In this document: in pieces, positions 7,497-8,781 of the stretch
How positions within the stretch are numbered: the first letter of the stretch is position 1
Layout: each line of letters begins with the position of its first letter
Assembly: GCA_934157235.1 (NCBI GenBank)
Contig: CAKPHH010000004.1
Location: forward strand, 4,585 to 68,584
Direction of reading: 5' to 3'
Length of the DNA: 64,000 nucleotides
Origin: an uncultured Bacilli bacterium
GTDB lineage: Bacteria > Bacillota_I > Bacilli_A > RF39 > UBA660
The notes under the pieces: model-generated
What the model was told of the DNA's origin: nothing
The model's database searches: none
What the model saw: only the letters and a program-made list of their open reading frames with translations
Position numbers and translations under genes: made by a program

Positions 7497-7525
7497 TTGA
7501 CATATTTCAAGACATATGATATAAT
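7497..7525 (+). promoter_or_regulatory. consensus sigma-A promoter TTGACA-17-TATAAT driving the large ncRNA
   Basis: TTGACA 7497-7502, 17-nt spacer, TATAAT 7520-7525; -35 sits inside palindrome TGTCAA-t-TTGACA. Confidence 0.7.
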
Positions 7526-7531
7526 GTAGGT

Positions 7532-8155
7532 GTAATTGATGGCACATTATTCTAGTCAATTACTTTATTAGGAAGACGGGATTAAACAACCGTTATAGAG
7601 CATATCTGTGAAACCTTTGGTGTTTGCTTTATGCGCCCAGTGTAGGGTGAATGCTGAAGATGAGGAGAATGGGCGCTCGTAATGGCATACGACAAACGAC
7701 CCATTATCCGTGGAGACCTATTATTGTGATAAGCCTATACGTTTAGACTGATGGACTTGTTACGAGATAGGATAGAACCTGTATTGTGGCGAAAGTTATG
7801 TGCAGCGTAGCTTGTCTTGAGTGAGAGTATTGGGATTAAAGATCTTATTTTAATAAGTGGGCCAACTTATTTAAATACTGCTTTATGAAACTGCTCTTGC
7901 AAAAAAGAATAAATAATAAAGTGTTGGTGGGGAAATCTCCTAGAGTGCGCTTAACATAGGATTGCAGTGGATACTAAGTGGTAATCAAGTCGTATGAATG
8001 GTGACATCATATTTATTTCTTTAAAGGGGAACCATGTATCTGGTAACGGATACGTAGAAATAAGGGAAATCCTACTTGACCTAAGGTTCAAAGTTTACTA
8101 TGTTTAGAGCCATTAGTTTTTGAAGTTTAAAATAGTATTTTTATACTATTTTTTC
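7532..8155 (+). ncRNA. ~625-nt structured non-coding RNA candidate (OLE-like / large ornate ncRNA)
   Basis: Between perfect promoter and intrinsic terminator; no ORF longer than ~27 codons in any frame; local GC clearly above neighbouring genes; local stems e.g. GCGCCCA(7634-7640)/TGGGCGC(7670-7676); followed by small 4-TM protein as OLE is followed by oapA. Confidence 0.5.
8129..8155 (+). terminator. intrinsic terminator of the ncRNA
   Basis: AATAGTAT-tttt-ATACTATT perfect 8-bp stem then TTTTTTC. Confidence 0.65.
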
Positions 8156-8175
8156 TATATAATAAGGAAGGGTAT

Positions 8176-8781
8176 ATGAATAGTAAAAAGAAATTAGAAA
8201 GAGATGAATTTCAAGAATTAGTTGTTGAAACTAAGAAAAGAGAAAGAGTTAATAAGAAGAAAACGGATATGGGGTGGATTATTAAAATTATTTTAATAGC
8301 CTTTACTTTATCTTTTGGACTTTCTTATGTATCACAAGTAGCTTTACCAAAACTTTCTTTAATTGGGGGAGTTATCGTAACTTTACTTTTTGTAGGTATT
8401 GGTATTTTATTTGATATTGTAGGGGTTGCGGTTACTAGTAGTGATGAAAAGGTTTTTCATTCGATGAATTCTAGAAAAGTAAAAGGTGCAGATGTAGCAG
8501 TTAAGTTTAAGAAGAATGCTTCTAAAGTATCTAACTTTTGTTGTGATGTAGTAGGAGATGTATGTGGAATTATTTCTGGTACAGCAGCAACTACTATTGC
8601 GGTTGTTATAGCGAGTGAGTTTCATTTAAATGTATTATTTACAGGACTTACTATAGCGGCTATAGTTGCGGCTCTTACAATAGGTGGTAAGGCTTTAGGT
8701 AAAGGTTTTGCGATAAATAAAAGTAATATCATACTTTATAAATTTGCTAAAGTGATTTCCATATTTTATAAGGTCAAGTAG
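8176..8781 (+). CDS. small 4-TM membrane protein with Lys/Glu-rich cytoplasmic N-terminus (OapA-like candidate)
   Basis: RBS AAGGAAGGG; 43-aa highly charged N-terminus (KKKLERDEFQELVVETKKRERVNKKK) then four hydrophobic helices. Confidence 0.55.
   Translation: MNSKKKLERDEFQELVVETKKRERVNKKKTDMGWIIKIILIAFTLSFGLSYVSQVALPKLSLIGGVIVTLLFVGIGILFDIVGVAVTSSDEKVFHSMNSRKVKGADVAVKFKKNASKVSNFCCDVVGDVCGIISGTAATTIAVVIASEFHLNVLFTGLTIAAIVAALTIGGKALGKGFAINKSNIILYKFAKVISIFYKVK

What the first reader, a model, noticed from the sequence alone, without database searches (positions are those of the whole stretch)
7497..8781. Large (~625 nt) promoter-to-terminator non-coding RNA followed by a Lys-rich 4-TM protein: OLE/OapA-like ribonucleoprotein locus or a new analogue
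A perfect TTGACA-17-TATAAT promoter (7497-7525) and a perfect 8-bp-stem intrinsic terminator (8129-8155) bracket ~625 nt with no ORF above ~27 codons in any frame and GC clearly above the surrounding ~28% genes. This is the signature of a structured RNA rather than a decayed gene. Local helices are visible, e.g. GCGCCCA/TGGGCGC at 7634-7676 and ACTTGA/TCAAAGT near 8075-8100. It shows none of the RNase P conserved blocks (GGAAAGUCC, ACAGAA) and lacks a tmRNA-type tRNA-like 3' end. Twenty nt downstream, 8176-8781 encodes a 201-aa protein with a highly charged Lys/Glu-rich 43-aa N-terminus and four TM helices. That architecture matches OLE RNA next to oapA in anaerobic and extremophilic Firmicutes. 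If it matches none of the known large ncRNA families (OLE, ROOL, GOLLD, HEARO, raiA), this is a new large ncRNA–membrane protein pair.
Basis: partly seen in the sequence, partly recalled or inferred. Interest (0 to 1): 0.85.

Follow-up and report, generated by a model that had tools for sequence, protein, structure and literature searches.

The report
OLE RNA gene with oapA
This is an ordinary, full-length copy of the already known OLE RNA followed by the gene for its membrane partner OapA, in an uncultured gut bacterium of the RF39 group. It is not a new kind of RNA.

Summary
Window 7523-8129 (+) matches Rfam OLE (RF01071) over the whole model, 1-616, at 383 bits against a threshold of 50 (E 5e-109). 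No other family apart from five tRNAs reaches threshold in the window.

Sixty homologous copies from related gut MAGs support the Rfam fold. 89.7% of cells pair, against 38-47% for slid controls, and 109 of 153 pairs change on both sides.

The downstream 201-aa protein is OapA:
- It is 41% identical (E 6e-31) to a published OapA.
- The DxxxD motif (DVVGD) is invariant.
- It has four TM helices.

The perfect extended -10 promoter is unique in the window and conserved in relatives. The AT-rich terminator hairpin is weak (-7.1 kcal/mol) but is kept in relatives through compensatory changes.

The nearest genomes belong to RF39 (CAG-877, Candidatus Faecimonas). This copy keeps P7 and P8, which the RF39-typical "variant 2" lacks. 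It also keeps the OapB site; the OapC k-turn is only plausible.

The two helices it cited are not part of the family fold. The charged N-terminus is 31 aa, not 43.

Verdict: already known, low interest.

The parts
7497..7525 (+). Sigma-70-type promoter of the ole gene: -35 TTGACA at 7497-7502, TG at 7517-7518, -10 TATAAT at 7520-7525. The start site is predicted near 7532-7534.
   Evidence: 12/12 match with an extended -10. Unique in the window, with 0.10 expected by chance. Present at the same position in the 22 close relatives inspected. The start site is inferred from spacing, not measured.
7523..8129 (+). OLE RNA (Rfam RF01071), full-length type. The transcript probably runs from about 7532 to about 8155.
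   Evidence: 383.3 bits, E 4.6e-109, model 1-616/616. 141 of 155 projected pairs are canonical. On 60 sequences, 89.7% of cells pair against 38-47% for slid controls, and 109 of 153 pairs change on both sides.
7534..7543 (+). 5' strand of a terminal closing helix that pairs with 8109-8118. Rfam does not annotate it.
   Evidence: 82.8% paired against 17-48% slid, with 6 pairs changed on both sides. I derived this helix from these sequences, so support is moderate.
7550..7555 (+). 5' strand of a candidate long-range P3.1 helix (UUCUAG), pairing with 7940-7945 (CUAGAG). The outer P3 candidate is 7542-7544 with 7946-7948. Together they enclose P4-P9 (domain 1).
   Evidence: 99.4% paired against 32-55% slid, but only 2 pairs change on both sides because the region is nearly invariant. 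The correspondence to the published P3 is inferred from text in PMC12265935. G7542 and C7543 are also used by the terminal-helix candidate, so the two overlap.
7575..7594 (+). P4 hairpin with an A-rich loop (UUAAACAA).
   Evidence: Rfam alignment. Helix 1 has 3 pairs changed on both sides. The P number is assigned from text in PMC12265935.
7614..7660 (+). P5/P5.1 hairpin with the invariant GCCCA loop at 7635-7639. The flanks 7602-7614 and 7661-7668 could form the k-turn.
   Evidence: GCCCA is invariant in 60 sequences. 12 pairs of this helix change on both sides. The k-turn reading (AUC-UGU-GA with GA-GG) is my manual fit to the description in PMC9723947.
7664..7709 (+). P6/P6.1 hairpin with the conserved AAUGGCAU loop from 7681. 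In H. halodurans the bS21 site maps to P6.
   Evidence: Site assignment from PMC12054373.
7717..7771 (+). P7 hairpin. Present, with an apical region 11 nt longer than the Rfam consensus.
   Evidence: 12 pairs of this helix change on both sides. Several relatives lack or shorten it.
7779..7805 (+). P8 hairpin closed by a GAAA tetraloop.
   Evidence: 98.6% paired. Present in nearly all 60 sequences; the L065 alignment here is poor.
7814..7909 (+). P9-P9.3 long hairpin with the palindromic GGCC loop at 7860-7863.
   Evidence: Among relatives the loop palindrome switches to GUAC (L057, L059) and AGCU (L056). Kretsch et al. use such switches as evidence for an intermolecular kissing loop.
7949..8108 (+). 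3' multi-helix domain (P12-P15 region). It includes P13 (7992-8012: GUGA loop 8001-8004, bulged A7997), which is the OapB site, and P14/P14.1 (8013-8063: GUAA loop 8043-8046).
   Evidence: (helices 14-19 are 92-100% paired with many double changes). OapB site requirements from PMC7936274.
8129..8155 (+). Weak AT-rich intrinsic terminator: 10-bp stem, UUUU loop, then a U tract.
   Evidence: -7.1 kcal/mol, z -1.96. Not found by the G+C-rich scan. A hairpin plus T-tract is conserved in relatives with compensating stem changes.
8164..8172 (+). Shine-Dalgarno-like AAGGAAGGG ahead of oapA. A -10-like TATAAT at 8158-8163 has no -35.
   Evidence: Read directly from the sequence. Similar TATAAT elements follow the terminator in L017, L023, L050 and L060. 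Function not tested.
8176..8781 (+). oapA: a 201-aa, four-TM OLE-associated protein A with DVVGD at residues 124-128.

Best explanation
The locus is the ole-oapA pair of a low-G+C gut bacterium of the order RF39, close to GTDB genus CAG-877 (Candidatus Faecimonas).

Shown here:
- A consensus extended -10 promoter lies upstream of a roughly 620-nt RNA that is a full-length member of the OLE family and has the family's covarying fold.
- The RNA ends at a weak but conserved hairpin plus U-tract.
- 47 nt after the Rfam match, and 20 nt after the hairpin's T-tract, starts the gene for a four-TM, CNNM-like protein that is a homologue of OapA.

Inferred from work on Halalkalibacterium halodurans and on Clostridium OLE RNAs:
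- OapA dimers bind OLE near P4a and hold it at the cell membrane.
- OLE dimerises through the L5.1/L6.1, L4 and palindromic L9.3 contacts, all of which are present here.
- The particle helps the cell cope with stresses such as cold, short-chain alcohols, excess Mg2+ and poor carbon sources.

Also inferred: oapA is expressed mainly by read-through of the weak terminator. That would give much RNA and little protein. A weak -10-like element at 8158-8163 may contribute.
For: - RNA identity: Rfam OLE at 383.3 bits, full model, and the only non-tRNA family hit in the window.
- Fold: 141 of 155 pairs are canonical in this copy. On 60 homologues, 89.7% of cells pair against 38-47% for slid controls, 109 of 153 pairs change on both sides, and 0 of 500 shuffles reach the observed values.
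- Signature motifs present: GCCCA, AAUGGCAU, the GGCC palindrome, P13 GUGA plus a bulge, and P14.1 GUAA.
- Linkage: OLE lies upstream of the oapA homologue in 63 of 65 related loci, directly in most and 0.45-2.1 kb away in four.
- Promoter: unique in the window and conserved.
- Terminator: conserved with compensating changes.
- Taxonomy: the nearest genomes are 'Mycoplasma sp. CAG:877' and gut Bacilli MAGs. CAG-877 is assigned to RF39.
Against: - Nothing argues against the identity.
- Function, membrane localisation, dimerisation and RNA-protein binding are transferred from other species and are not tested here.
- No OapB-like (KOW) or OapC-like (L7Ae) protein was found in the window. These genes are normally unlinked, only ten ORFs of 76-158 aa were scanned for Pfam domains, and OapB was not searched by sequence. 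Fernando and Breaker say RF39 mostly lacks both proteins, so the composition of the particle in this organism is unknown.
- The usual ole neighbourhood of isoprenoid, DNA repair and similar genes was not seen among the flanking genes I annotated.
- The read-through model for oapA expression is only an inference from a weak hairpin.
Confidence: 0.96

Rival explanations
1. A new large structured RNA that is only analogous to OLE, paired with an unrelated Lys-rich membrane protein.
For: There are small departures from the Rfam consensus. The short hairpin at model positions 424-435 is missing, the P7 apex has an 11-nt insertion, and the gene neighbourhood is not the usual one.
Against: The RNA gives a full-length OLE match at 383 bits, against a threshold of 50. 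Every signature loop is present. The protein is 41% identical to a published OapA. The departures fall in regions the literature already calls variable.
Confidence: 0.01
2. The 0.6-kb region is a long cis-acting leader of the oapA mRNA, acting as a riboswitch or attenuator, and not a separate trans-acting RNA.
For: It is on the same strand as oapA, the gap is only 47 nt, the hairpin is weak, and no convincing separate oapA promoter was found.
Against: A terminator hairpin is conserved after the RNA. In L013, L015, L050 and L060 0.45-2.1 kb lie between OLE and oapA, and an RBS and start codon follow the hairpin within about 60 nt in L013, L015 and L050. Published work shows OLE acts as an abundant RNP component and is not an mRNA leader.
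Confidence: 0.02
3. A decayed or frameshifted protein-coding gene whose remnant merely looks non-coding.
For: Short ORFs of 31-46 codons exist in the region. In one relative a gene caller extended oapA upstream through the OLE 3' domain (P0099, 269 aa).
Against: Substitutions across 60 homologues preserve base pairs and not codons, with 1108 cells changed on both sides against 350 expected. No gene is called here on four public contigs. The P0099 extension is an annotation artefact, because the other 15 aligned homologues start at or near the window's ATG. I did not run a six-frame protein search of the region.
Confidence: 0.01

Closest known systems
OLE RNA, full-length class (Rfam RF01071; Puerta-Fernandez 2006; Fernando and Breaker 2024)
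   Same: About 600 nt with full coverage of the model. It has the same covarying helices and the same invariant loops (GCCCA, AAUGGCAU, GGCC palindrome, GNRA loops of P13 and P14.1). oapA lies immediately downstream, and the host is an anaerobic member of Bacillota.
   Different: - It has its own consensus promoter and terminator, whereas H. halodurans transcribes a polycistronic cluster.
- It lacks the small, poorly conserved hairpin at model positions 424-435.
- Its P7 apex is 11 nt longer, with clade-specific conserved sequence.
- It is very A+U-rich (38% G+C).
- Its neighbours are a glucosaminidase-like gene and an ABC-F ATPase, not the usual isoprenoid or DNA-repair genes.
OLE 'variant 2' (common in RF39) and 'variant 1' (common in TANB77) of Fernando and Breaker 2024
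   Same: The host lineage is the same: RF39, uncultured gut bacteria with reduced genomes. Some relatives in my alignment do show reduced P7, reduced distal P9, or loss of the P13 GNRA loop.
   Different: The window copy keeps P7 (7717-7771), P8 (7779-7805), a long P9 and the P13 OapB site. It is therefore not variant 1 or variant 2.
OapA (OLE-associated protein A) of H. halodurans and Clostridium
   Same: Four TM helices, a DxxxD motif, and 41% identity to a published OapA. It shows CNNM-like remote similarity with CorB as the top structural match. The basic residues are predicted to lie on the cytoplasmic side.
   Different: The main Lys/Arg cluster is a 31-aa N-terminal extension. The published OapA I compared it with carries a Lys-rich C-terminal tail instead.
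MpfA/CorB/CorC (CNNM-family Mg2+ transporters)
   Different: There are no CBS-pair or CorC_HlyC domains. PF01595 scores below its threshold. It has four TM helices where CorB has three (as stated in PMC11332333). It has a DxxxD motif, and there is no proline in the region that aligns to CNNM.
Other large ornate bacterial RNAs (ROOL, GOLLD, raiA, HEARO)
   Same: All are large, highly structured, non-coding RNAs found in Bacillota.
   Different: None of them reaches its Rfam gathering score anywhere in the window.

Membership tests
OLE RNA (RF01071) | Covariance-model score at or above the curated gathering score (50 bits) over most of the model | tested here: met
   383.3 bits, E 4.6e-109, model positions 1-616 of 616.
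OLE RNA (RF01071) | Ornate secondary structure supported by covariation | tested here: met
   153 projected pairs on 60 sequences. 89.7% of cells pair against 38-47% for slid controls. 109 pairs change on both sides. Covariation score is 0.386 against 0.08-0.10. No shuffle out of 500 reaches the observed values.
OLE RNA (RF01071) | Highly conserved loop sequences used for dimer contacts (L5.1 GCCCA, L6.1 UGGC, palindromic L9.3) | tested here: met
   GCCCA at 7635-7639, AAUGGCAU from 7681, and GGCC at 7860-7863. The first two are invariant or nearly so in 60 sequences. L9.3 switches between palindromes (GGCC, GUAC, AGCU). Dimerisation itself was not tested.
OLE RNA (RF01071) | OapB site: P13 closed by a GNRA tetraloop, with a single-nucleotide bulge | tested here: met
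   P13 at 7992-8012 has GUGA at 8001-8004 and bulged A7997. Requirement taken from PMC7936274.
OLE RNA (RF01071) | OapC site: a k-turn formed from J4a/5, J5/6 and the left shoulder of P6 | tested here: inconclusive
   The window has AUC-UGU-GA (7604-7611) and GA-GG (7664-7667, following U7663), which can be drawn as a k-turn with a C-G pair next to the bulge. This is a manual fit. Many relatives have GA-AA at the 3' side, which would break that pair.
OLE RNA (RF01071) | oapA gene immediately downstream | tested here: met
   oapA starts 47 nt after the Rfam match. The same order holds in 63 of 65 related loci, with 0.45-2.1 kb between the two genes in four of them.
OLE RNA (RF01071) | Host in Bacillota, typically an anaerobe or extremophile | tested here: met
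   The nearest genome records are gut 'Bacilli bacterium' MAGs and 'Mycoplasma sp. CAG:877'. GTDB genus CAG-877 is placed in order RF39 (PMC8035907).
OLE RNA (RF01071) | Membrane localisation and RNP formation with OapA; stress phenotypes on deletion | not testable with these tools
   This needs experiments. It is known only for H. halodurans and surrogate E. coli.
OLE variant 2 (RF39-type) | P7 and P8 entirely absent | tested here: not met
   P7 (7717-7771) and P8 (7779-7805) are both present and paired. This copy is therefore the full-length type.
OapA | Sequence homology to experimentally studied or published OapA | tested here: met
   41% identity over 171 aa, E 6e-31, against the OapA sequence in Supplementary Table 4 of PMC12286853. 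That sequence was machine-read from a PDF and may contain small errors.
OapA | DxxxD motif | tested here: met
   D124-V-V-G-D128. It aligns with DVIGD of the published OapA. D124 and D128 are invariant in 16 homologues.
OapA | Four transmembrane helices | tested here: met
   AF2 helices at 32-59, 62-88, 115-149 and 153-181. Four hydropathy peaks. This is a prediction only.
OapA | Remote CNNM similarity that scores below true CNNM/MpfA proteins, with a CorB-like fold | tested here: met
OapA | Lacks the conserved proline of CNNM domains | tested here: inconclusive
   The only proline is P58, which lies outside residues 68-200, the stretch that aligns to PF01595. I did not map the exact CNNM column.
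OapA | Cluster of positive residues on the cytoplasmic face | tested here: met
   The N-terminus (1-31) has 11 K/R, the TM2-3 loop has 8 K/R and the C-terminus has 7 K/R. The other two loops are short and nearly uncharged. The sidedness is inferred from the positive-inside rule.
MpfA/CorB/CorC (CNNM Mg2+ transporters) | CNNM domain above the Pfam threshold, followed by CBS-pair and CorC_HlyC domains | tested here: not met
   The protein is only 201 aa, has no CBS or CorC_HlyC hit, and scores below threshold for PF01595.

The most novel reading that the evidence does not exclude
In this RF39 lineage OLE may work with a reduced or different set of protein partners. The RNA is a self-contained promoter-to-terminator unit, and in some relatives 0.45-2.1 kb separate it from oapA, with an ORF opening in the gap in at least three of them. 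The window copy keeps a full-length fold with an intact OapB site and a possible OapC site, although the clade is reported to mostly lack OapB and OapC. OapA has also moved its basic cluster to the N-terminus. If OapB and OapC are truly absent from this genome, the conserved P13 and k-turn elements would have to serve the RNA's own architecture or bind other proteins.
Probability: 0.2. Interest if true: 0.35.

Novelty: already known. Interest (0 to 1): 0.12.

Why it matters
OLE is among the most intriguing bacterial non-coding RNAs. It is large, membrane-associated, possibly membrane-spanning, and its biochemical function is unknown. This locus only adds another routine member, and one from a lineage (RF39) already reported to carry OLE. 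Its modest value is as comparative data:
- It is a very A+U-rich, full-length OLE from a reduced-genome gut bacterium.
- It has cleanly defined transcript ends.
- The 60-sequence clade alignment shows which elements can be lost (P7, distal P9, the P13 loop) and which are untouchable (L5.1, L6.1, P3.1, and the J regions).

Tried and rejected
- PDB sequence search with the protein found nothing meaningful (best E 0.27, a CheC/FliN fusion). No OapA chain is detectable in PDB by sequence.
- NCBIfam has no model that matches the protein.
- The G+C-rich terminator scan found no site in 7000-9200. The terminator rests on conservation instead.
- I looked for OapC and bS21 in the window by tblastn using the published sequences and found no hit better than E 6.
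- A Pfam scan of ten ORFs of 76-158 aa found no KOW or L7Ae domain. These genes are normally unlinked to ole, ORFs under 70 aa were not scanned, and OapB was not searched by sequence, so this says little.
- My attempt to define the k-turn across relatives was inconclusive.
- My P3 and terminal-helix candidates overlap at G7542 and C7543. I could not decide between them.
- L063 carries an oapA homologue, but no OLE reaches the Rfam threshold within 6 kb. I did not pursue it.
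Full report
WHAT IS THERE

I read 7200-9000 and scanned the whole window against Rfam at curated thresholds. Window 7523-8129 on the + strand matches OLE RNA (RF01071) over the entire model, positions 1-616. 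The score is 383.3 bits against a gathering score of 50, with E 4.6e-109. The only other hits in the 64 kb are five tRNAs. No RNase P, tmRNA, SRP, 6S, ROOL, GOLLD, raiA or HEARO model reaches threshold.

CHECKING THE OBSERVATION

The promoter is as described. TTGACA-17-TATAAT lies at 7497-7525 and scores 12/12, with a TG two bases upstream of the -10. It is the only perfect match in the window. 100 dinucleotide-preserving shuffles give a mean of 0.10 matches.

The "terminator" is a perfect 10-bp inverted repeat (8129-8138 with 8143-8152) with a 4-nt loop and a following T run. It has a single G-C pair, folds at only -7.1 kcal/mol (z -1.96) and is not picked up by the G+C-rich terminator scan.

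The region is non-coding, but the stated limit of about 27 codons is wrong. ORFs of 46, 40, 37 and 31 codons lie inside it. Gene callers place no gene there on four public contigs that carry the identical locus.

G+C is 37.9% for the RNA, against 26.5% (upstream) and 29.6% (downstream) in the flanking genes and 28.1% for the window.

STRUCTURE AND CONSERVATION

A search of one genome per GTDB species with the downstream protein returned 65 loci. nhmmer with the window RNA found a homologue upstream of the protein gene in 63 of them: directly upstream in most, and 0.45-2.1 kb away in L013, L015, L050 and L060. In L019 the contig ends too early. In L063 nothing is found, and Rfam agrees.

I aligned 59 full-length copies with the window copy (A1). 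I then projected the Rfam consensus structure onto the alignment through the window row. In the window copy 141 of 155 model pairs are canonical.

Across the 60 sequences the result is clear:
- 89.7% of cells form standard pairs, against 38-47% when partners are slid by 1-3 columns.
- 109 of 153 pairs show changes on both sides.
- The covariation score is 0.386, against 0.08-0.10 for slid controls.
- No shuffle out of 500 reaches the observed values.

This structure comes from Rfam and not from these sequences, so the test is reasonably independent.

They pair only because both sides are conserved; 490 of 500 shuffles do as well. In the family model, GCCCA is the L5.1 loop and ACUUGA pairs with UCAAGU at 7985-7990.

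MAPPING TO THE PUBLISHED ANATOMY

I used the text of Lyon and Breaker 2025, Lyon et al. 2022, Yang et al. 2021, Kretsch et al. 2025 and Wencker et al. 2025 to assign stems:

| Element | Window coordinates | Notes |
|---|---|---|
| P4 | 7575-7594 | A-rich loop |
| P5/P5.1 | 7614-7660 | GCCCA loop |
| P6/P6.1 | 7664-7709 | AAUGGCAU loop |
| P7 | 7717-7771 | apex 11 nt longer than consensus |
| P8 | 7779-7805 | GAAA tetraloop |
| P9-P9.3 | 7814-7909 | palindromic GGCC at 7860-7863 |
| P13 | 7992-8012 | GUGA loop, bulged A7997 (OapB site) |
| P14/P14.1 | 8013-8063 | GUAA loop |

All of these are present.

A candidate long-range P3/P3.1 (7542-7544 with 7946-7948, and 7550-7555 with 7940-7945) pairs in 99.4% of cells, but it is almost invariant. 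A terminal helix (7534-7543 with 8109-8118) pairs in 82.8% of cells against 17-48% slid. I derived both from these sequences, and they overlap by two bases, so I treat them as tentative.

The k-turn for OapC can be drawn in the window copy. It is a manual fit, and it is not clearly kept in many relatives, so I call it inconclusive.

The copy departs from the Rfam consensus in two ways. It lacks the poorly conserved small hairpin at model positions 424-435, and it has 11 extra bases in the P7 apex.

THE PROTEIN

ORF 8176-8781 (201 aa) has no NCBIfam match and no PDB sequence match. Its only Pfam match is PF01595 CNNM at 20.2 bits, below the cut-off of 28.4. Fernando and Breaker describe exactly this behaviour for OapA.

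The supplement of Kretsch et al. holds an OapA sequence. BLASTP against it gives 41% identity over 171 residues, E 6e-31, and DVVGD aligns to DVIGD. D124 and D128 are invariant in 16 homologues.

Hydropathy gives four peaks. K/R residues concentrate in the N-terminus (11), the TM2-3 loop (8) and the C-terminus (7), which fits an N-in/C-in topology.

The protein is OapA and is not an MpfA/CorC transporter, because it has no CBS or CorC_HlyC domains. One small difference stands out. Here the basic cluster is a 31-aa N-terminal extension, whereas the published sequence carries a Lys-rich C-terminal tail.

TRANSCRIPTION UNIT

In the 22 close relatives inspected, a TTGACA-like -35 and a TGnTATAAT -10 (TATACT in L001) sit at the same distance from the conserved RNA core. 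A hairpin plus T-tract also follows the RNA in relatives, and its stem sequences differ while staying complementary: AUAGUAU/AUACUAU, AGUAG/CUACU, AGUGG/CCACU. This argues for a real terminator despite its weakness here.

In L013, L015, L050 and L060, 0.45-2.1 kb lie between OLE and oapA, and in L013, L015 and L050 an RBS and start codon follow the hairpin within about 60 nt. The RNA gene can therefore stand alone.

I infer the following, without having shown it:
- The RNA starts near 7532-7534 and ends near 8155.
- oapA, which has an AAGGAAGGG ribosome-binding site, is translated mainly from read-through transcripts.
- A -10-like TATAAT at 8158-8163 has no -35 and may contribute.

ORGANISM AND CONTEXT

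The exact protein is indexed in 107 blocks of the contig collection; the 24 contigs read include one of 850 kb. The closest genome records are "Mycoplasma sp. CAG:877" (89% identity) and gut "Bacilli bacterium" MAGs. GTDB genus CAG-877, named Candidatus Faecimonas, is placed in order RF39 (PMC8035907).

Fernando and Breaker report that RF39 commonly carries OLE "variant 2", which lacks P7 and P8, and mostly lacks OapB and OapC. The window copy has both P7 and P8 and is the full-length type. Several relatives in A1 do show reduced P7, loss of distal P9, or loss of the P13 GNRA loop.

The conserved neighbourhood in this clade is a glucosaminidase-like gene, then ole, then oapA, then an ABC-F ATPase. 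The glucosaminidase gene is present in 43 of 65 loci and the ABC-F gene in 37 of 65. The transglutaminase-like gene at 6760-7470 is found only in the window and in L002.

The rest of the window looks chromosomal. It encodes IleRS, SepF, DivIVA, a Mur ligase and a P-type ATPase. No KOW or L7Ae protein was found among the ten ORFs of 76-158 aa that I scanned, and tblastn with published OapC and bS21 gave nothing.

HOW IT MOST LIKELY WORKS

By homology to the H. halodurans and Clostridium systems, which I did not test here:
- OapA dimers anchor OLE at the membrane through the P4a region.
- OLE dimerises through L4, L5.1/L6.1 and the L9.3 palindrome.
- The particle supports adaptation to stresses such as cold, alcohols, excess Mg2+ and poor carbon sources.

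Whether OapB, OapC and bS21 take part in this organism is unknown.

VERDICT

The "OLE/OapA" reading is correct and the "new analogue" reading is excluded. This is a known RNA family in a lineage already reported to carry it, so novelty is "already known" and interest is low.

Noticed in passing
window 7860-7863; L057 and L059 (about 5600-5700), L056: The P9.3 loop palindrome is GGCC in the window and in most relatives. It is GUAC in L057 and L059 and AGCU in L056. L035 and L036 have non-palindromic GGCG and GGCA. Switches from one palindrome to another fit the intermolecular kissing loop proposed from cryo-EM.
   Followed up: partly
window about 7732-7762 (P7 apex): The sequence AAGCCUAUACG...ACUGAUGGACUU is strongly conserved across this clade but is not conserved in the Rfam consensus. 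It contains UGAUGG and CUGA, which resemble box C/D or k-turn elements. Its role is unknown.
   Followed up: no
alignment A1: L018, L020, L027, L029, L031, L034, L046, L057, L059, L065; L030; L037, L041, L044, L049, L051, L055, L062: Some relatives have lost parts of the RNA. The first group has P7 shortened or missing. L030 lacks distal P9. The last group has lost the GNRA loop of P13, which is the OapB site. All still score 349-414 bits where I tested them.
   Followed up: partly
L013, L015, L050, L060; L063: 0.45-2.1 kb lie between OLE and oapA in L013 and L015 (about 0.45 kb), L060 (1.5 kb) and L050 (2.1 kb); an RBS and ATG follow the hairpin within about 60 nt in L013, L015 and L050. L063 has an oapA homologue (about 50% identity) with no OLE within 6 kb.
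   Followed up: partly
protein P0099; window ORF 7994-8107 (+): In one relative a 269-aa gene call runs through the OLE 3' domain and into oapA. This is an annotation artefact. The window's 37-codon ORF at 7994-8107 has a similar peptide sequence.
   Followed up: partly
window 7633-7639 and 7670-7676: The L5.1 loop GCCCA is complementary to UGGGC of the P6 5' strand, and both are nearly invariant in all 60 sequences. An alternative pairing cannot be tested by covariation. The literature already describes several mutually exclusive folds in the P5-P6 region.
   Followed up: partly
window 8158-8163: A -10-like TATAAT lies directly after the terminator and 12 nt before the oapA start codon, with no recognisable -35. 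Similar TATAAT elements follow the terminator in L017, L023, L050 and L060.
   Followed up: no
window 6760-7470: The transglutaminase-like gene between the glucosaminidase-like gene and ole is found only in the window and in L002 among the 65 related loci. This suggests a recent insertion next to the ole promoter.
   Followed up: partly
window 31018-38763: This ORF encodes a 2581-aa protein with glucoamylase-like, GH94 supersandwich and GH94 catalytic domains in its C-terminal 1500 residues. It resembles a cyclic beta-1,2-glucan synthase or phosphorylase. The N-terminal 1100 residues have no annotation.
   Followed up: no
window 26363-26596 (-): This 77-aa ORF matches only the N-terminal alpha-hairpin domain of Fe/Mn superoxide dismutase. 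It is probably a gene fragment.
   Followed up: no
window 10456-13195 (-): A cluster resembling a 2-hydroxyacyl-CoA dehydratase system (a BcrAD_BadFG-type ATPase plus HGD-D/DUF2229 proteins) lies downstream of the ABC-F gene. Its first two genes are found downstream in 17 of the 65 related loci.
   Followed up: no
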